Shown here piece after piece: positions 22,130-41,642 of a stretch of DNA of 64,000 bases; within the stretch, counting starts at the first letter, position 1, and each line of letters opens with the position of its first letter. The position numbers and the translations under genes were made by a program. The notes under the pieces were generated by a model, which had not been told where the DNA came from, did not search any database, and saw only the letters and a program-made list of their open reading frames with translations. Source of the DNA: Minutocellus sp. GHC0000111 (lineage: Eukaryota); the NCBI GenBank assembly GCA_977018835.1, contig OZ361261.1:434001-498000 (forward strand), given 5' to 3'.

Positions 22130-23485
22130 ATGCCGAAGAAGAGCAGGCGCAACCGAGCGAAGGGAGGGGCGGCCGGCACGGGTCGCGGGGCTTCGGGAGT
22201 CGGTAGCTTCAACAGCAGTACCCAACGAGGAATGGACCTTGTGTCGTACTGTCCTGACAGGGATCGGAAGGTAGCGTTGTGGATGTACGAGTGGTCGGCG
22301 GCCAAAGATCGTCTCATGAAGGACATTCTCGATGCATTGGCTGAAGATCCTCGCATTCATGCCCTGTTCGATCCAGACTGCCTCTCTCCCACACTCGTCA
22401 ATTTATTGGAGTATTCCACTGCGAACTTTGTCACAATGACTTCTGGCAGCACGCCACACTCACTATTAGATGCTACGGCTCTCGCTGCTACCAAACCCTT
22501 ACTGGTTGAGGCGGCGAATATGGTTTTTAGGAACGGGTGCAAAACCAGCCTCCCTCCTCTCCAGCGCCGGAAAAAGTACGTGGAGGGTATTATCGATGAT
22601 GCCCGTGGTCTGATGGCCATCGGCCGAGGAGATGTGGCGGCTGCTCTGTGCAACTTTGGGCTGAATTGTGAGCAAACTAAGATATTTTGCGACGCGTTCC
22701 TCGCGGAGTGGGACTGTAATATTCACTCAAGCGATGCGTTTGTGGATGGCAAGGCGAAACGTGCGATGAAGATTATCTCGGAGAACGAGACAAATCCGAT
22801 GCATACTCGGGCCCATGCGTTGGTACTTCGAGGTATGATGTCTCATGAGTTTGAAGAGTGTCCAAGTCCAGCCACTGCCGCCTATTTCCGCAGGGCACTT
22901 CGATACAGCCGCAAAATTGAGGCAGGCGAAATGCGTTCCATCGACTTTGTTTTGCAGGGTGTCTCGTTACAACTTGACGTCAAGGAAAGAGTTGAGCTGA
23001 ATTTGGATGTGGCAAAGCGGTTACTTTCCTTCTATGAAGGACCAGGTGCATGTGTGGGGATGACGCTTTTGGAGAGGATTTCACATTTTGATAGAAGTTT
23101 CCCTTGCATTCCAAACTACCTGGCTATCGGAGGGGCACAATGCGACCACTGCGGCAAAACGGCCGAGGAAGCTGGTCTTCCCTGCTTGCACAAATGCAAG
23201 CAATGCCGCATGGCTCTTTACTGCAGCGTCGAGTGCCAGGCCGCCAGATGGTCTGGCGGTGGACATCGGGAGCACTGTAAGAAGTTTGGGCGATTTGGGG
23301 TTGGCGACAAGCTTGTTTTGTTTGGTTTGAAGAAACGATCTGACCTCAATACCTCCCTGGTCGAGGTAGTTGGCAAGACTATGCCCCATCGTTTGAACGT
23401 TCGTATCTGCTTCCCTCCCGAGCACGAGGGCACCGTCGTTGCTGCCAAGAAGACGAATCTGCGCCACCACCGCCCGATGAGGTAG
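22130..23485 (+). CDS. MYND zinc-finger protein
   Basis: CDHCGK..CKQCRMALYCSVECQ..W..H.EHC followed by an SH3-like GLKKRSDLN tail. Confidence 0.85.
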   Translation: MPKKSRRNRAKGGAAGTGRGASGVGSFNSSTQRGMDLVSYCPDRDRKVALWMYEWSAAKDRLMKDILDALAEDPRIHALFDPDCLSPTLVNLLEYSTANFVTMTSGSTPHSLLDATALAATKPLLVEAANMVFRNGCKTSLPPLQRRKKYVEGIIDDARGLMAIGRGDVAAALCNFGLNCEQTKIFCDAFLAEWDCNIHSSDAFVDGKAKRAMKIISENETNPMHTRAHALVLRGMMSHEFEECPSPATAAYFRRALRYSRKIEAGEMRSIDFVLQGVSLQLDVKERVELNLDVAKRLLSFYEGPGACVGMTLLERISHFDRSFPCIPNYLAIGGAQCDHCGKTAEEAGLPCLHKCKQCRMALYCSVECQAARWSGGGHREHCKKFGRFGVGDKLVLFGLKKRSDLNTSLVEVVGKTMPHRLNVRICFPPEHEGTVVAAKKTNLRHHRPMR

Positions 23486-23944
23486 GTAGAAAAGTACAAC
23501 CAAAGAAGAGAAATTTCGGGAAACAAACAAATTGAATCATCCAAGAGCCTGCCGTCACTGTCATTGTGGTAGCGAATAAGATTCAAATGCTTGAGTATAT
23601 TTAGCAAACGAGGCGGTCATGTTCTACATTAAATATACGACTTCATTTATCATTCCAATCTCTCGATCTCGTATCTGCTTCCCTCCCGAGCACGAGGGCA
23701 CCGTCGTTGCTGCCAAGAAGACGAATCTGCGCCACCACCGCCCGATGAGGTGATGAGGTAGGTAGAAAAGTACAACCAAAGAAGAGAAATTTCGGGAAAC
23801 AAACAAATTGAATCATCCAAGAGCCTGCCGTCACTGTCATTGTGGTAGCGAATAAGATTCAAATGCTTGAGTATATTTAGCAAACGAGGCGGTCATGTTC
23901 TACATTAAATATACGACTTCATTTATCATTCCAATCTCTCGATC
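23401..23944 (+). repeat. Tandem duplication (268 bp + 276 bp) of the MYND gene 3' end and UTR
   Basis: 23401-23668 is repeated at 23669-23944. The only difference seen is an extra GATGAGGT in copy 2. Confidence 0.95.
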
Positions 23945-34529: not shown

Positions 34530-35924
34530 TCACTTCCAGAACATTGAGCCCTGGAGCTCATGCAATTCTTGAGCGTACTCATACAGCCGCACGTCAAATG
34601 TATTTTGATCCCATAGTGCCTTCCATTCCGAGGAGCCTTCACGCACTCTCGGGTGGTTCACTTTCCCCTCCCAACCCCAACCTAATAATCTCTCGACGCA
34701 GCGTTCGCCCCATTCGCCCTGACTTTCCAGAACAATGTTCCATCCCAGAAAGTGAACGAACCGATGAAAACTTTCCTCCTTCTTTTCTAGCAGTCCGACC
34801 ATCACTTTTGTTCGTAGTACCTCCCTCGCCACAGCCTCGTCCTGAACCGGTAGCTCGCCATTAATCTTTCCGCTGAGATACCGCGTCAGCCAGTTGTTCT
34901 CGGCAAGGTCCGATCTGGCATACTTGTCCAACGAATCCAGACCAAACCGTGCCAGTTCAATCTGCAGCTTCTTATCTTGCAACATGCGGTAATACAAACT
35001 GGCTCCGCGATCGATCGGATGTCTCAAAAGAGCAAACGCTCGGCCTCGGTTAGATGAGTCGAAGAGTTGCGACACTTCCTGAAGATATGACGATACAATT
35101 AGATCAAGAGGACGGAACTTTGCAAGATGCAATGCCTTGGCGCGTTCCAGCCCGAAAGGCGACGTTGTGTCAACGTTGACGTATTTCTGCCCCTTATCAT
35201 CTGCTACCACCATGAGCGTATTGCCAATATTTTCCTTGCTGGTTCCAAGCACTCCACGCTCGGAAGCTATTGTAAGCCCCAGACATTGTGAGGCAATGGT
35301 CTTCATCGTCGCTCCGCCTGATCGTGGTATGTGCCAGTATAGTGGCAAATCCTTTTCGGTAATTTCGTTGGACGTGTCGGCAAGATTGACCAACGCGGCA
35401 GGGATGGGCACACTCCGACCCAGGTATATGGTTGGTTTCGACGGATCGGACTCGAGAGTCATGGTATTATTTTGTTCCCAACCCAAGGCAGATGTCTGTG
35501 TGAACGAACCTCGCTTATTGTTGAAGCCACTGGTATCTCTTATTCGTTTTCTTCGACTGGTGACCGGCATGGCATCGCTGCTTCTTTCCGGTGGTCCCTG
35601 AACAACATTTGCCATTTCCAGCGCCTTGCGAGTTGTGAACAGGCACGCACTGGATGCAAACAGCAGTACCATGATGCGCTTCCCCTTCGCTGTGGCATTG
35701 AGCGCCCGCGTTTGTCTCTGTTCGTCGTTTTCGAGTTTGCCCAATGTTGCATCGGCATCTTTGGCATCTCCATTTAAAAGCTTTGCAAGTTCGTCGTGTT
35801 GTTGGTGGTGGTGTTTGTTGGGCGGTTCCTTCACCGGTTTGCGATGCCGCCGTATCCTTGACCTCATGGAGTCATGGAACGGCGTCGCTATTGTACGCAG
35901 CATCGACGCGGTCGTTTGTACCAT
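34530..35924 (-). CDS. Golgi-type sulfotransferase-like protein
   Basis: Motifs YWHIPRSGGATMK, LLRHPIDRGASLY, ENNWLTR and N.FDVRLY. Confidence 0.85.
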   Translation of the reverse strand: MVQTTASMLRTIATPFHDSMRSRIRRHRKPVKEPPNKHHHQQHDELAKLLNGDAKDADATLGKLENDEQRQTRALNATAKGKRIMVLLFASSACLFTTRKALEMANVVQGPPERSSDAMPVTSRRKRIRDTSGFNNKRGSFTQTSALGWEQNNTMTLESDPSKPTIYLGRSVPIPAALVNLADTSNEITEKDLPLYWHIPRSGGATMKTIASQCLGLTIASERGVLGTSKENIGNTLMVVADDKGQKYVNVDTTSPFGLERAKALHLAKFRPLDLIVSSYLQEVSQLFDSSNRGRAFALLRHPIDRGASLYYRMLQDKKLQIELARFGLDSLDKYARSDLAENNWLTRYLSGKINGELPVQDEAVAREVLRTKVMVGLLEKKEESFHRFVHFLGWNIVLESQGEWGERCVERLLGWGWEGKVNHPRVREGSSEWKALWDQNTFDVRLYEYAQELHELQGSMFWK

Positions 35925-36429
35925 GTTGGCTGGTCGATTAATTATGGTTTGCGAAATGAATGGGGGGAGATTGGGTGGGTGGGGCTAATGCTTGAACGAG
36001 GAAACGAGGAATGCATGTAATGACCGCTGCTGTATCTGCACAAGACGAAGTTCAGATGGGGCTCGCCGCAGCAGAGCCACAATTGTGTATGAATCTGCGA
36101 CTTGCACGAAACAGCTTGCTGGTAGTGGTGCCTTGGGCGGGTACGCCTGTCGTGCCGTTCAATTTGCGGTCATATCAAACGGATATCAAGCCGCCGGTTG
36201 CGAATGACCATGGCGCAAGGTCCGGTCAAATGTACTCTTTCAATTGCGTACGTAGGCCTAGTACAGAGCCTACTACGTAGCTACGTTGTACCCCAGAAAA
36301 GCTCCCAAAAACCAGAAAACCCCAAATGTAGTTGATGGAAATCGACCCGTTTGATGAAACGCTCCCCCCCGTTTGATGGAATTTGACCGCGTAAACAGTT
36401 AGTCGATCAAACGCTTCCGGGGCCATTTT

Positions 36430-36915
36430 ATGGCCCCGCTACACCGTGACAACATCGCTCGAGCTCTCTCTTGCATTAATAAATACCACCCAACCATGTC
36501 GCTTCCCAGCCGCGACACCGCAGCAGCCTCGCGGCCACAGCGCCGCAGCAGCGACATTGTCATAGAGAAGGGTGTGCGTGCGGGCGCAAAGCGATTCCGG
36601 CTGTGCTTTCCCGGCGTAAACAGTAAGAAGAAAAAAGGGTGGAAAGCCCAACCCGACGTTGGGTACTCTCTTTGCAACGATTTGCGGCCCAGTGCGGCAA
36701 GGAAAAGGAAGAAGCTGGGATACGATGATGCCACCAACCTCAACAATAGATTGAAGGCATACTATGCAATAAAATGTGGAAAGTACTCAGCGGATGACTT
36801 GAAAATTCAGAGCGCAGCCAATCTTATGAGCATGGGAGTGAGAGCTAAGGCTGGCACAACATCCACTTACTTTGATTTGGCGGTAGAGATTTACAACAGC
36901 GAGAACGGTGCCTAA
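36430..36915 (+). CDS. Small basic protein with an AP2-like DNA-binding pattern (element accessory ORF)
   Basis: FPGVNSKKKKGWKAQ...RKKLGY...AYYA resembles the AP2 pattern (Y/F)xGV...WxA...LGxF...AY. An AT-rich shared terminator region follows (36916-36997). Confidence 0.55.
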   Translation: MAPLHRDNIARALSCINKYHPTMSLPSRDTAAASRPQRRSSDIVIEKGVRAGAKRFRLCFPGVNSKKKKGWKAQPDVGYSLCNDLRPSAARKRKKLGYDDATNLNNRLKAYYAIKCGKYSADDLKIQSAANLMSMGVRAKAGTTSTYFDLAVEIYNSENGA

Positions 36916-36997
36916 AATAGTAACATGATAACCTATTTACATGAAAATACTAATGCACTTATGATATTATTATAAGTTACATAATACACATTTATGA

Positions 36998-38491
36998 TTA
37001 CAAGTTACCAGCACCAGCAACAGCCTCCTCGGTGGGAAACTCCGTTACAGCACGTGAACCATCGGCGACTGTCTTGAAAACGGCAATCTTTTTAATCTGC
37101 TCTACAATAGCAGGAGTTCCCTCTCTGTCCCCGTCTGCCATGTATTGCAAAAGAATTTCAAGGGCTGCCCACCTTCCAACTCTCTTCATGATGTGCAAGT
37201 CAGCACCACACATCCTCGCCCACAAAGTCCCGGAGTACCGGATCGAATGCGATGAGTACTCGAGCCACTTTTCATCCCCAGTAATTTCATAAGCTCTGTC
37301 AAAAACAATCTTGACATGCTGCTCATAGGTAGCAGCAGTGATATCAAATATTTTTTTGTCATCGTCGGCTAGTCCATTAGTCTCAAGGTAGTTGAACCAG
37401 TCCAACAAGAGATAGACAATGTCAAACCTAGCCTGATTCTCAATAGTGTTGCTGTGGAATCGAATGGGATACTGTGCATCAACAAATCTTATGTTTCGGC
37501 TCTTCCAATTTCTCCAAACAAGCCTTATCCAGTGAGGCAGAGTCGATCCTGTGAAGTATTCATCTTCCATCGGCGGGTACTCCACCTCCTTCTGCAAAGG
37601 ACAATGTGTAGTAATGCAGGACGCCCGGCCCATCACGTTGAGCTGGAGCATCATCATCACCCAAGTGCGTTTCTTAACCTCTTCGTGCTTCCGAGGATGG
37701 TTCATGCAAGCGTCATGTAGAAGCGGAAGCTCGGTGATGAGAAAGGACGGTGCAGACTTTTTGGTGCGAAAATGACCACGCATCCATTTCTTTATCTCCG
37801 ACGAAAGCGTTGCGTCCTTTCGATCAAGTTTTGGCCCACCAAAAAGAACTGAAATGGAAGATATTGCAGCAAGTTTCAGCCCCAAAGTGCCCCAGTTGTT
37901 ATTTCTGCCTGCGACGTTTACACCACCAAAATTGGTCGTCGTGCTTGGTGATGAGTGAAGGTAACTGCACCAGTCCACGACGGCACCGGCATCCGGCGCC
38001 ATCCACCGCAACCGTCGCACCTGTCCCTCTTCAAGATCTTCGTCGGTAACGTGCGCCGGCACAATATCCTCGAGGCGGAAGGAGCCATTGTCGTACGCTT
38101 CGATCTGTTCCTTGACCTGAACGATGTACTTGGTGTATTCGTTCTCGGGCATGTGCTTGAGGAGGAAGCACTCCAACTCAGCGAAGTACTTCACCGCGCT
38201 AACTGTTATGGCGTCACTGCGGAAGCGATTGCAGTGCCTCTTCAGCGCGTCGATGTTCAGTATATTTTTGGAAGTGATGGCGTTATTCGGCTCGAAGTGG
38301 ATCTTCCATGCATAAAGTAGGACACACGCATTCGGCACCGTTTCCTTGTCGCTCTCGGTTGCCTCTCGCCAATGCTTGACCGCCTCGTCGTACACACGCA
38401 AAATGCGGAATTCCATGCCCTCCATCGGAGCAGGAGCAGGACGATTTCGGCCAGCATCGGCCCTTGCCCGAGAAGCGGAACGATCTGCCAT
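36998..38491 (-). CDS. Tyrosine recombinase/integrase
   Basis: Catalytic residues appear in order: R (MGRAS), K (NWKS), HxxR (HSIRYSG), W (GRW) and Y (QYM). The ORF is uninterrupted, and the first ATG is at 38491. Confidence 0.85.
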   Translation of the reverse strand: MADRSASRARADAGRNRPAPAPMEGMEFRILRVYDEAVKHWREATESDKETVPNACVLLYAWKIHFEPNNAITSKNILNIDALKRHCNRFRSDAITVSAVKYFAELECFLLKHMPENEYTKYIVQVKEQIEAYDNGSFRLEDIVPAHVTDEDLEEGQVRRLRWMAPDAGAVVDWCSYLHSSPSTTTNFGGVNVAGRNNNWGTLGLKLAAISSISVLFGGPKLDRKDATLSSEIKKWMRGHFRTKKSAPSFLITELPLLHDACMNHPRKHEEVKKRTWVMMMLQLNVMGRASCITTHCPLQKEVEYPPMEDEYFTGSTLPHWIRLVWRNWKSRNIRFVDAQYPIRFHSNTIENQARFDIVYLLLDWFNYLETNGLADDDKKIFDITAATYEQHVKIVFDRAYEITGDEKWLEYSSHSIRYSGTLWARMCGADLHIMKRVGRWAALEILLQYMADGDREGTPAIVEQIKKIAVFKTVADGSRAVTEFPTEEAVAGAGNL

Positions 38492-38835
38492 TGCTGCCGA
38501 GAGTGTGACGAACAAGGAGCCACCATCGCTCCTGCGAATGGCACGTGTCTTGCTCGAAAAACGACTGGTGGTCAAAAACTGTCGATGTGACGTGTCAAAA
38601 CACATCTTGTGCCGTATCTTTTCCTATCCACTAGCTAGGGCAGATGCTGCCGCCGCTAAGCGATCAACCTGACGACTTTGTCGCTTCGTATCTCGAGCAA
38701 TATTTGGATTCATGCATCAAGCGACGCATGGAGTTCATCGGCAAGACGAGATGAGGCCAAATCCGGTGTCTTTGGGGGGGTTTACGGGCATTTATGTTCC
38801 GTTTGATCAAATAGTGACGTCATCCAAGCTACCTA

Positions 38836-39630
38836 ACGTTGTACCCCAGAAAAGCTCCCAAAAACCAGAAAACCCCAAATGTAGTTGATGGAAATCGACC
38901 CGTTTGATGAAACGCTCCCCCCGTTTGATGGAATTTGACCGCGTAAACAGTTAGTCGATCAAACGCTTCCGGGGCCATTTTGTGGCCCCGCTACACCGTG
39001 ACAACCCAAACAACATCGCTCGAGCTCTCTCTTGCATTAACAAACACCACCCAACCATGTCGCTTCCCAGCCGCGACACCGCAGCAGCCTCGCGGCCACA
39101 GCGCCGCAGCAGCGACATTGTCACAGAGAAGGGTGTGCGTGCGGGCGCAAAGCGATTCCGGCTGTGCTTTCCCGGCGTAAACAGTAAGAAGAAAAAAGGG
39201 TGGAAAGCCCAACCCGACGTTGGGCACTCTCTTTGCAACGATTTGCGGCCGAGTGCGGCAAAGAAAAGGAAGAAGCTGGGATGCGATGATGCCACCAACC
39301 TCAACAATAGATTGAAGGCATGCTGTGCAATAAAATGTGGAAAGTACTCAGCGGATGACTTGAAAATTCAGAGCGCAGCCAATCTCATGAGCATGGGAGT
39401 GAGAGCTAAGGCTGGCACAACATCCACTTACTTTGATTTGGCGGTAGAGATTTACAACAGCGAGAACGGTGCCTAAAATAGTAACATGATAACCTATTTA
39501 CATGAAAATACTAATGCACTTATGATATTATTATAAGTTACATAATACACATTTATGATTACAAGTTACCAGCACCAGCAACAGCCTCCTCGGTGGGAAA
39601 CTCCGTTACAGCACGTGAACCATCGGCGAC
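38836..39630 (+). mobile_element. Truncated tandem second copy of the YR element (direct repeat of 36283-37069)
   Basis: About 790 bp near-identical to copy 1, with 11 substitutions, a 1-bp indel and a 9-bp indel. It includes the accessory ORF (ATG->GTG) and the last ~24 YR codons, then stops abruptly. Confidence 0.95.
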
Positions 39631-41642
39631 CAACCTCGGCGCCGACGCCGTATTCCAGCAACGTGACGGCGGTGCCACCGCCGCTACCACCGGGACCACG
39701 GACCAGTTCCAGTTCCGGCACGGCCGCCCGGGCCCACGCCTACGCGTCAAGTCGGATGGCCTCGTCGAGCTTTGGGGATTTTCACGTCGGTCATTTAAAC
39801 GGCGGCGCCGGGAGCTCTGCTTCGGCGGTGTATTATTCCGGCAATTCGTCGGCCACAACTGCCGACCACGTGTCGTCGGCTGCTCCAATGTCGAGCGTCG
39901 GAATACCGTCGCAGCAGCGATCGCTAAGCACGGACGATGCCGACATTGCCGCTGGGCTCTACGTGGGCGGTGGCAGAGGACGGCACGTCGCTGCATCGAC
40001 GTCGTCCTCGAAGCATCAGCAACACCGCAGCAGCACCGGCGCTCGTCGCCGGGCGCCGCGGCAGAATGCTCTGGATGCCTTCCGGGATTCCGAGGCGGAC
40101 TTTTTGAAGCTCAGCAGCGTCGGCAGCGTGGCGGGCAGTACTGGCACGGCGGGATACATGAGCGGGGCCGAGAGCAGCATCGGGACCATACCGACCCCAC
40201 CCACCAGTGGCAACATGGTCTTGAACTTGCCCACCTTGGACAGCAAGGGCGAGGGCGGTGGGAAGGGCGCGGATATCGACCACCGGGAGCAGATACTTGT
40301 CCTTGGCATTGATATTTCGCACCTGTCTCGGAAGAAGCAGTTCATCTATTGTGCTGGCGGAGTGTTTTTCTTTTTCGTTGCTCTATGGGTTCCTCCAGGA
40401 ACTCATTAGCGTGACATTGTGCTGTCGACAGCTGGGACTCTTCTTAGCAGTGGCGCAATTTTCGGGATATACCTTCTGGAGCTATCTATTGCGAGAGTAT
40501 GTCAATGAAAAATAGGCCCGGCACCGAAGAAGAAGCATGAGGATGAATGGCGATGGTGGTGGCAATCATGCATTGGAGTTGGATGGCGGTGCACATGGAG
40601 AATCGCCATCGGCTATATGTTGGCGCAACGGGTCCAGTATAGTTCGATCTATCTTCAGAAGAGGTGGCAAATCACCAAGTGCTGGGAAGAAGGGACCCCA
40701 GGGCAAGGGAACTATTCCCGTTCCTATCGCAACTTATCTCGGCCTTTCCATCTTACGTGCAATTGATCTCGGTGCTACCAATCTGGCAATGCAATATGTC
40801 ACGCCAAGACCCTCATGAAGTCTGCCAGGGTCGTCTTCACTATGCTCTTCGGCGTTATCGTAGCCAAGCGTCGATATCAGCTCGGTGACTACGCCGTCGT
40901 AATGATCATGGTCGCTGGTCTTGCCCTCTTTATGCATGCCGATGCCAACTCGAGCGCCGTCTTTCAGCCCTTTGGCATCATGCTCCTCGTCCTTTCGCTC
41001 AGCTGCGATGGTGCTATATCCAACGTGTCCGAGAATTTAATGAACCAGCTTGGTGTCGGCCAAGACGAATTCATCTTCCGATTGTACAGTATCGCTACTC
41101 TTGCCATTTTAGCCGCGGCAACATTCAAGGGTGACATGACAGAGGGAGCTAGATTCCTTTTCCTTCCTGGAACTTACGATGAGATCAACAATGGCGAAGA
41201 GCCTACGTGGTCAGTGGCTAGAAAAATATTTGTCGTGGTTCTTTTTTCTACCATGGGATTTTTCGGTTCTAGCTGTTCCGCTGCCATTACCAAGCACTTT
41301 GGTGCCCTTACCATGTCTATTACCTCTACCGCAAGAAAGGCAACAACACTTTTCCTTTCGTTTGCTTTCTTCAATAACGTCTGTACCCTCGAGCATATTA
41401 GCGGTATTGTTCTCTTCATCACAGCACTCATCATGAAGAGTCTCAGAGCGAGTCGAAAGGGACGTCATCGTAGTCATTCCAGGAAAAAGCGACTGCGAAG
41501 ATCACCAGAAAGAACACCACTTGTGAACTCCACGAGTAGCATTGAAATTGGAAGTGGAGGTGCCGATGCTGCTGCACTTCATCAGCGAAGGACTGGCAAC
41601 AGCCCTATGCGCCATCCCAATCGTAGCTCCAATGTTGTATAA
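39631..41642 (+). pseudogene. SLC35B-family (PAPST2-like) nucleotide-sugar/PAPS transporter pseudogene
   Basis: Motifs VLGIDISHL..QF..GGVFFF/SLLYGFLQELI, TNLAMQYV..AKTLMKS and FGAL..ITSTARKATT. The 5' end is replaced by element DNA. Lesions are a +1 shift near 40375, TAG at 40513-40515 and a ~7-nt loss near 40800. Confidence 0.8.

What the first reader, a model, noticed from the sequence alone, without database searches (positions are those of the whole stretch)
36279..38832. Compact two-gene tyrosine-recombinase element: YR plus a convergent AP2-like protein, no RT
Seen in sequence: an intact YR with R-K-HxxR-W-Y, a convergent 161-aa basic ORF, a shared AT-rich 3' spacer, a 6-bp AGCTAC direct repeat at both ends, and no TIR or LTR. 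Established: Cryptons are YR-only DNA transposons with short terminal direct repeats, and AP2-like folds act as arm-binding domains in lambda/Tn916-type integrases. Inference: this may be an undescribed Crypton-like lineage in which the end-binding or directionality function is a separate gene, similar to an Int/Xis pair.
Basis: partly seen in the sequence, partly recalled or inferred. Interest (0 to 1): 0.8.

Follow-up and report, generated by a model that had tools for sequence, protein, structure and literature searches.

The report
Two-gene Crypton-like transposon, not AP2
A 2.6-kb mobile DNA element in a marine eukaryote (likely a diatom) carries an intact Cre-like cut-and-rejoin enzyme and a conserved second gene of unknown fold that has lost its middle in this copy; it likely inserts by recombining at a 4-base ACGT core, and it appears to be an uncatalogued lineage of Crypton-type transposon.

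Summary
Real element, different details. The terminal repeat is ACGT (TACGT in a relative), not AGCTAC. The tyrosine recombinase (YR) is intact (R327-K368-H453-R456-W479-Y488). Its model is closest to Cre (Z 17.5) and much less like Crypton-derived Ndc10 or QRICH1 (Z about 7). It has 169 relatives at 50% clustering, and none of the 86 scanned hit a reverse transcriptase family. The '161-aa ORF' is a 139-aa in-frame deletion remnant of a conserved ~319-aa protein (dN/dS 0.19) with no AP2 support from Pfam or its low-confidence model. A YR-less relative (L001) keeps both ends and this second gene, so the gene belongs to the element. Copy 2 differs from copy 1 mostly by TpA>CpA/TpG changes (9 of 11), the signature described in Bigelowiella, but short-read contigs do not show them. 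Verdict: Crypton in the broad sense and probably a separate lineage. The Int/Xis-like role of the second gene is open, and no tree against named Crypton, DIRS or Ngaro sequences could be built.

The parts
36283..38839 (.). Copy 1 of the element, 2557 bp including both ACGT cores
   Evidence: Left end repeated at 38836; right boundary from X5 and X3 contigs; both ends conserved in L001
36283..36286 (+). Left terminal core ACGT (TACGT from 36282); likely crossover site
   Evidence: L001 has TACGT at both ends
36331..36380 (+). Three subterminal [GT]TTGAT[GC][AG]A motifs (36331, 36350, 36372); candidate protein-binding arm sites
   Evidence: 3 here and 2 in the left end of L001; background 0.1 per kb; the motif was read off the element itself
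36496..36915 (+). ORF2, 139 aa from the conserved ATG (161 aa from the upstream ATG at 36430); remnant of a ~319-aa protein with an in-frame deletion of 180 aa at about 36687
   Evidence: deletion junction carried by contigs of X2, X3 and X5, full-length join in X13; dN/dS 0.185 against L001
36916..36997 (.). Shared 82-bp 3' spacer, 79% A+T
36998..38491 (-). Intact Cre-like tyrosine recombinase, 497 aa from the conserved start (open frame extends to 38605); R327 K368 H453 R456 W479 Y488 in 535-aa numbering
38802..38810 (+). Right subterminal TTTGATCAA motif, same family as the left motifs
   Evidence: conserved in L001
38836..38839 (+). ACGT core shared by the right end of copy 1 and the left end of copy 2 (head-to-tail junction)
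   Evidence: 69-bp contig 38797-38865 with no differences in run X2
38836..39631 (.). Partial copy 2 (left end, ORF2, last codons of the YR); 97% identical to copy 1; 9 of 11 substitutions are TpA>CpA/TpG
39630..39631 (.). Abrupt join of copy 2 to the interior of a host UAA-transporter gene through 2 bp of microhomology; rare deletion or assembly chimera
   Evidence: runs X1, X2 and X3 show two intact upstream alleles here and no listed contig bridges the join

Best explanation
This is a two-gene, reverse-transcriptase-free DNA element with an intact Cre-like tyrosine recombinase, which likely moves as Cryptons are proposed to: by recombining its two ACGT-cored ends into a circle and recombining that circle into a TACGTA-type target. 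SHOWN: the ends, the intact enzyme, the head-to-tail junction, a YR-less relative with the same ends and the same second gene, and purifying selection on that gene. INFERRED: the circle; that the tandem arose when a circle inserted into the end of an existing copy; the TACGTA preference (two loci plus one loose end); that L001 is mobilised in trans. ORF2 is likely a nuclear DNA-binding accessory protein acting at the subterminal TTGAT motifs. I put about 30% on a role in end pairing or direction of recombination, 25% on transcription or anti-silencing of the element, and the rest on other or no role in mobility. In this copy it is a deletion remnant, so any such function would come from full-length copies elsewhere.
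For: YR family profile hits Cre at E 4e-10 in both the core-binding and catalytic parts. The model has pLDDT 91; Foldseek's best hit is Cre, E 1e-7; VIA gives Cre Z 17.5, rmsd 3.6, 288 aligned. 32 of 86 family members hit Phage_integrase and none hit an RT, DUF3504, NDC10_II or DUF3435 family at E<=0.1. 149 of the 150 listed relatives are 584 aa or shorter. Ends. The junction contig is in run X2 at word depth 82, against 95-147 for single flank alleles. L001 holds left end, full-length ORF2 (one frameshift) and right end in 1419 bp with no YR. Precedent: CryptonF-1_cRei ends in CACCG and targets CAYCG (PMC9977147, passages).
Against: No empty site and no free circle was seen; a tandem and a circle give the same junction. 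The target preference rests on very few sites. Only one relative (L001) was obtained as DNA. ORF2 relatives were found only down to 45% identity, so co-occurrence with the distant YR relatives (about 20-30% identity) is untested, and their contigs could carry RT. ORF2 has no identified fold (model pLDDT 54). The deleted form of ORF2 is the main path in X2, X3 and X5, so full-length ORF2 is not needed in cis. No tree with named eukaryotic YR families was built.
Confidence: 0.72

Rival explanations
1. It is an ordinary member of a described Crypton group (most plausibly CryptonS of stramenopiles, or another Repbase Crypton group) that carries an extra gene, as some CryptonS elements carry a peptidase gene.
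For: CryptonS occurs in oomycetes and a diatom, is about 2.5-5.9 kb, has 5-7 bp terminal repeats and no GCR1_C, and some members have a second ORF (PMC3212892 passages and supplement 1). This family also has a short conserved C-terminal tail, DPI..W.F.
Against: Most CryptonS ends are TATGG and the diatom element ends in CTGTAAG; here the core is ACGT. None of the 30 clusters looked up listed an NCBI or UniRef source among the members shown. No CryptonS sequence could be compared directly.
Confidence: 0.15
2. It is a remnant or non-autonomous derivative of a DIRS- or Ngaro-type retrotransposon, and the 797-bp repeat is a split direct repeat.
For: DIRS and Ngaro YRs also belong to Phage_integrase PF00589 (PMC13465315, passage), the only family these proteins hit repeatedly. 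The HS.RR...A....G....GRW...Y motif looks Ngaro-like (recalled, not tested). Ngaro is common in a stramenopile (PMC12477816, passages).
Against: Both ends are defined within 2557 bp with no RT or Gag. L001 closes with the same ends and no long repeat. The 797-bp repeat contains whole ORF2 and the YR 3' end and starts at the terminal core, as a tandem copy would. The family has its own conserved N-terminal region and tail.
Confidence: 0.07
3. One reading: ORF2 is an AP2-fold end-binding or directionality factor that works with the YR as an Int/Xis pair.
For: ORF2 is basic, conserved and inside the ends; a V...KK..W stretch superficially recalls AP2 strands 1-2; repeated subterminal motifs exist.
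Against: 0 of 30 family members hit AP2 in Pfam at E<=10. The G of the 'GV' motif is not conserved. The model puts helices, not a three-stranded sheet, in that stretch, though at pLDDT 40-55. This copy lacks residues 65-244.
Confidence: 0.06

Closest known systems
Cryptons in the broad sense (YR-only eukaryotic DNA transposons; PMC3212892 passages and supplement 1; PMC13465315 passages)
   Same: Single intact YR, no RT, no TIR, short terminal direct repeat matching the target, apparently few copies, non-autonomous derivatives with both ends.
   Different: YR hits Phage_integrase and folds closest to Cre, not DUF3504 or NDC10_II. ACGT/TACGT core. A conserved, convergent ~319-aa second gene of unknown fold; the second genes those papers list are a DDE transposase, a C48 peptidase and an HTH domain.
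CryptonS of oomycetes and Phaeodactylum tricornutum
   Same: Probable host group, size range, no fused GCR1_C, 5-bp-scale ends, conserved C-terminal region.
   Different: Ends are TATGG, TTACTG, TAATG or CTGTAAG against ACGT; second gene is a peptidase; sequence relationship not testable here.
CryptonF, including the active CryptonF-1_cRei of Chlamydomonas (PMC9977147, passages)
   Same: End motif nearly identical to the target motif; associated with rearrangements.
   Different: CryptonF has a fused GCR1_C domain; this YR ends 47 residues after the catalytic Tyr. Ndc10, a CryptonF-derived protein, matches at Z 7.4 only.
Cre/XerH/integron and Tn1549/lambda integrases
   Same: Core-binding plus catalytic fold and R-K-H-R-W-Y set.
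   Different: 10-15% identity; extra conserved N-terminal strands; no relative found in the phage, viral-contig or prokaryote genome scans run here.
TpA hypermutation of integrated viral DNA in Bigelowiella natans (10.64898/2026.01.13.699255, passages)
   Same: TpA>TpG and TpA>CpA transitions concentrated in foreign DNA.
   Different: Here it is seen in a transposon copy of a different eukaryote, from one 797-bp comparison, and is not confirmed in short-read contigs.

Membership tests
Tyrosine recombinase superfamily | R-K-H-x-x-R-(H/W)-Y catalytic set and Cre/Int fold | tested here: met
   (Cre Z 17.5, rmsd 3.6, 288 aligned)
Crypton, broad sense | YR with no RT or DDE transposase between the ends | tested here: met
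   Only two genes in 36283-38839; L001 has none either
Crypton, broad sense | 4-6 bp terminal direct repeat, no TIR | tested here: met
   ACGT in the window, TACGT in L001
Crypton, broad sense | Terminal repeat matches the empty target site | tested here: inconclusive
   No empty site recovered; flanks of two loci and one loose end suggest TACGTA
Crypton, broad sense | Circular intermediate | not testable with these tools
   End-to-end junction is real but the window shows it as a chromosomal tandem; contigs cannot tell circles
CryptonF | GCR1_C domain fused C-terminal to the YR; NDC10_II-type YR | tested here: not met
   47 residues after Y488; 0 of 86 members hit those families at E<=0.1; Ndc10 Z 7.4 against Cre 17.5
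CryptonA / Glomhopper | DUF3504-type YR | tested here: not met
   0 of 86 members; QRICH1 complex Z 6.8
CryptonS | TATGG-type termini (majority of families) | tested here: not met
   ACGT/TACGT here; list of CryptonS termini
CryptonS | YR groups with CryptonS; shared C-terminal region | not testable with these tools
   No Repbase sequences held; supplements searched gave names only
DIRS / PAT / Ngaro / VIPER | RT-RNase H and Gag in the same element | tested here: not met
   not tested for distant relatives, whose DNA was not obtained
DIRS / PAT / Ngaro / VIPER | ITR+ICR or split direct repeats | tested here: not met
   The only long repeat is a tandem second copy; L001 has none
Starship | DUF3435 captain and large cargo region | tested here: not met
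   0 of 86 members; element is 2.6 kb
AP2/ERF-like domain (ORF2) | Sequence match to the AP2 profile | tested here: not met
   0 of 30 family members at E<=10; window ORFs none at E<=1. Divergent AP2 domains can escape this profile (recalled)
AP2/ERF-like domain (ORF2) | Three-stranded sheet packed on a helix | tested here: inconclusive
   Model predicts helices there at pLDDT 40-55; fold searches gave no clear match
Int/Xis-type pair | Accessory protein sets the direction of recombination | not testable with these tools
   Needs an excision/integration assay

The most novel reading that the evidence does not exclude
A widespread, uncatalogued lineage of marine-protist DNA transposons built on a Cre-like recombinase, in which a separate conserved gene of new fold binds the subterminal repeats and controls excision versus integration: a eukaryotic Int/Xis-like pair, with ORF2-only non-autonomous elements as helpers or parasites, and with copies being erased by a host TpA-rewriting defence.
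Probability: 0.2. Interest if true: 0.8.

Novelty: new variant of a known kind. Interest (0 to 1): 0.5.

Why it matters
How eukaryotic YR transposons choose between excision and integration is open; the Starship preprint read here reports circles but its text has no occurrence of 'directionality'. A 3-kb element with defined 4-bp cores, repeated subterminal motifs, an intact Cre-like enzyme and one conserved accessory gene is a minimal system in which to test this. It could also be a short-site integration tool for algae. The TpA>CpA/TpG pattern in copy 2, if confirmed in reads, would extend the Bigelowiella hypermutation to transposons in another eukaryotic group.

Tried and rejected
No own genome is held, so copy number and empty sites could not be taken from an assembly. 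AGCTAC as the terminal repeat: rejected. The 797-bp repeat as an LTR or split repeat: rejected. RIP in the fungal direction (CpA>TpA in copy 1): rejected, because relatives carry the TpA state. Locus scans that found no YR relative: metagenome contigs, viral contigs (DNA pattern), genome contigs, phages tblastn; these are pattern-seeded or limited collections, so absence is weak. ORF2 fold: no match at E<=0.001 in BFVD or PDB by Foldseek; VIA best Z 3.7 among 48,161 chains, with no AP2 entry among the 50 rows shown; no PDB sequence hit at E<=10; Atlas top score 0.78, a lead only. A by-eye resemblance of the ORF2 C-terminal domain to GCR1_C (recalled pattern) got no Pfam support and could not be tested further. 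An arm-binding-like domain in the YR N-terminus (three strands then a helix; conserved family-wide) is unproven: that helix aligns with the start of the lambda and Tn1549 core-binding domains, and the part was not folded alone. YR-ORF2 complex prediction gave no verdict (score 0.00, alignments not used). RNA run X6 contigs cover parts of both ORFs and not the ends; contigs cannot show transcription. A protein-level test for TpA-type changes across nine clusters showed no clear excess. Rfam: nothing in 35000-41000. The family-only tree (48 sequences; fragments and one near-duplicate left out) has no outgroup and does not place the family.

Full report
Setting. The window is gene-dense eukaryotic DNA: kinesin and UAA transporter beside the element; Myb, mitochondrial carrier, P450 and importin repeats elsewhere (20 ORFs scanned). 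Public runs that hold the element are one coded organism plus sponge, marine and estuary metagenomes. 'Diatom' is my inference from gene style and habitat and was not tested. No whole genome is held.

Anatomy. The repeat begins at ACGT in both places and contains the left end, the small ORF and the last codons of the YR, so it is a partial second copy joined head to tail.

Ends. AGCTAC occurs at 36279 and 38827, but three results put the boundary at ACGT. At the tandem junction the right end reads CTACCTA-ACGT-TGTACCCC, which needs no extra bases if ACGT is the shared core and five extra if AGCTAC is. In run X5 a contig matches the right end to 38839 and then leaves; in X3 one leaves at 38843 with one unlisted mismatch. 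The metagenome relative L001 has the same left end and a homologous right end, with TACGT at both and AAACTAC in place of AAGCTAC. The junction is in the raw data: a 69-bp contig covering 38797-38865 without differences in X2 (39 letters left of the core and 26 right of it, short of the tool's 31-letter bridging rule on one side). The flanks suggest a TACGTA-type target; this is inferred from two loci and one loose end, and no empty site was seen. A [GT]TTGAT[GC][AG]A motif occurs three times at the left end and once at the right, and twice and once in L001, against 6 in 60.5 kb elsewhere.

The recombinase. The window protein alone hits no relevant Pfam family. A profile search found 169 relatives at E<=0.001 among 50%-identity representatives. 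Of the 150 listed, one is longer than 600 aa; it has a long N-terminal extension in which I saw nothing RT-like by eye, and it was not scanned against Pfam. The six catalytic positions are conserved. 32 of 86 aligned members hit Phage_integrase; none hit DUF3504, NDC10_II, DUF3435 or an RT family; PHROG integrase families were hit by 22 and 15 of 86. The profile hits Cre at E 4e-10. The AlphaFold model (pLDDT 91) ranks Cre first by Foldseek and VIA (Z 17.5), then XerH, a staphylococcal integrase and the integron integrase (Z about 15). The Crypton-derived proteins Ndc10 and QRICH1 are at Z about 7; these are diverged and domesticated, so the ranking is suggestive only. That Ndc10 is the Cbf2 named in PMC3212892 is recalled. 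None of the 30 clusters looked up showed an NCBI or UniRef source among listed members, and no relative was found in the viral, phage or prokaryote scans.

The second gene. Relatives show that the real protein is about 307-339 aa and starts at the ATG at 36496. The window copy has lost residues 65-244 in frame. The deletion is real: it is the path taken by contigs in X2, X3 and X5, while X13 shows the full-length sequence joining at the same point (4 runs laid). Against L001 the retained 114 codons give dN 0.18 and dS 0.95. ORF2 and YR proteins are recorded on contigs of the same three lengths, and L001 carries ORF2 between the same ends with the YR removed and its upstream region kept. So it is part of the element. 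It is not recognisably AP2: 0 of 30 members hit any convincing Pfam family, the model is helical and low-confidence in the suspected stretch, and fold searches gave no clear match. Only the C-terminal helical domain (about 255-320) is modelled with confidence.

Mechanism. Shown: intact enzyme, matched 4-5 bp cores, end-to-end junction, non-autonomous relative. Inferred from the Crypton model (PMC3212892 and PMC9977147, passages) and from Starship circles (10.64898/2026.09.21.753150, start of abstract and passages): excision as a circle and re-insertion at a matching core, the tandem being a circle inserted into an existing end. Word depths over the element are roughly one to two times those of the flanks in X1 and X2, which hints at few copies; the tool warns that this is no copy number. 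ORF2's role is a guess from its basic character, conservation and the repeated motifs.

Copy 2. Nine of its 11 substitutions change TpA to CpA or TpG. Among transitions that is 9 of 10, against 7 of 27 in host allele differences nearby (Fisher p 7e-4; 38 listed differences used, the list being cut). Relatives carry the TpA state, and three changes in the copy 1 YR (C94, A208, A532) fit the same rule. This is the signature reported for integrated viral DNA in Bigelowiella natans; an earlier scan note (e1-7691518) led me to that paper after I had seen the pattern. Against this: in the runs laid, every listed contig over these sites shows the copy 1 letter, though contigs drop minority variants. 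The join of copy 2 into the UAA transporter gene at 39631 is not bridged by any listed contig, and both intact alleles are present in X1, X2 and X3, so it is a rare deletion or an assembly chimera.

Comparison and novelty. 'Crypton' is now used for any eukaryotic YR-only DNA transposon without implying common origin (PMC13465315, passage); in that sense this is one. It fails the tests I could run for CryptonF, CryptonA, Starship and DIRS/Ngaro, and its ends differ from those listed for CryptonS. Its relation to CryptonS and other Repbase groups is untested. Nine literature searches showed no description of a two-gene ACGT-ended element, but the library lacks most subscription papers and Repbase. 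Also read as passages: PMC12130899, PMC6681497 (12 of 13 supplements searched), PMC12477816, PMC12220804; the supplement of PMC13465315 was searched without hits; bioRxiv supplements were not seen. Earlier scan notes list other Crypton-like elements in diatoms, and a sequence look-up found none like this one.

Verdict. A real, probably recently mobile Crypton-type element of an apparently uncatalogued Cre-like lineage with a conserved accessory gene; the AP2 and AGCTAC claims fall. New variant of a known kind; interest 0.5.

Noticed in passing
window 38836-39631: 9 of 11 substitutions against copy 1 are TpA>CpA/TpG, matching the Bigelowiella hypermutation signature; not seen in short-read contigs.
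   Followed up: partly
window 39630-39631: Copy 2 runs into the middle of a UAA-transporter gene; three runs show two intact alleles there, so the window's join is rare or an assembly error.
   Followed up: partly
window 36232-36282: Another allele (run X5) leaves the window sequence at about 36215-36231, before the TACGTA-rich left flank; the element may sit inside a larger haplotype-specific insertion.
   Followed up: no
window 38917-38954: Runs X2 and X3 hold a contig that shares only this 38-bp subterminal stretch and differs on both sides: probably a related subfamily in the same organism. A variant right end also appears as a loose end at 38823 in X1, X2, X3 and X5.
   Followed up: no
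window 38588-38599 and 38814-38821: GTGACGTGTCAA upstream of the YR and TGACGTCA near the right end are conserved in L001; they resemble bZIP-type sites (recalled).
   Followed up: no
window 38395-38491 (YR residues about 60-105): Confidently modelled three strands plus helix at the YR N-terminus, conserved across the family; function unknown, possibly extra DNA contact.
   Followed up: partly
window 23401-23944: Tandem duplication of 268/276 bp, identical apart from an 8-bp insertion, across an exon-intron stretch; possibly an assembly artefact.
   Followed up: no
L001 1-420: Left flank is rich in TACGTA/CTAG-type palindromes (TACGTA at 123, 264, 287), like the window's flank; such patches may be insertion hot spots.
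   Followed up: no
P0140 (family member, not in the window): 1239-aa relative with about 740 extra N-terminal residues including a C2H2-like motif.
   Followed up: no
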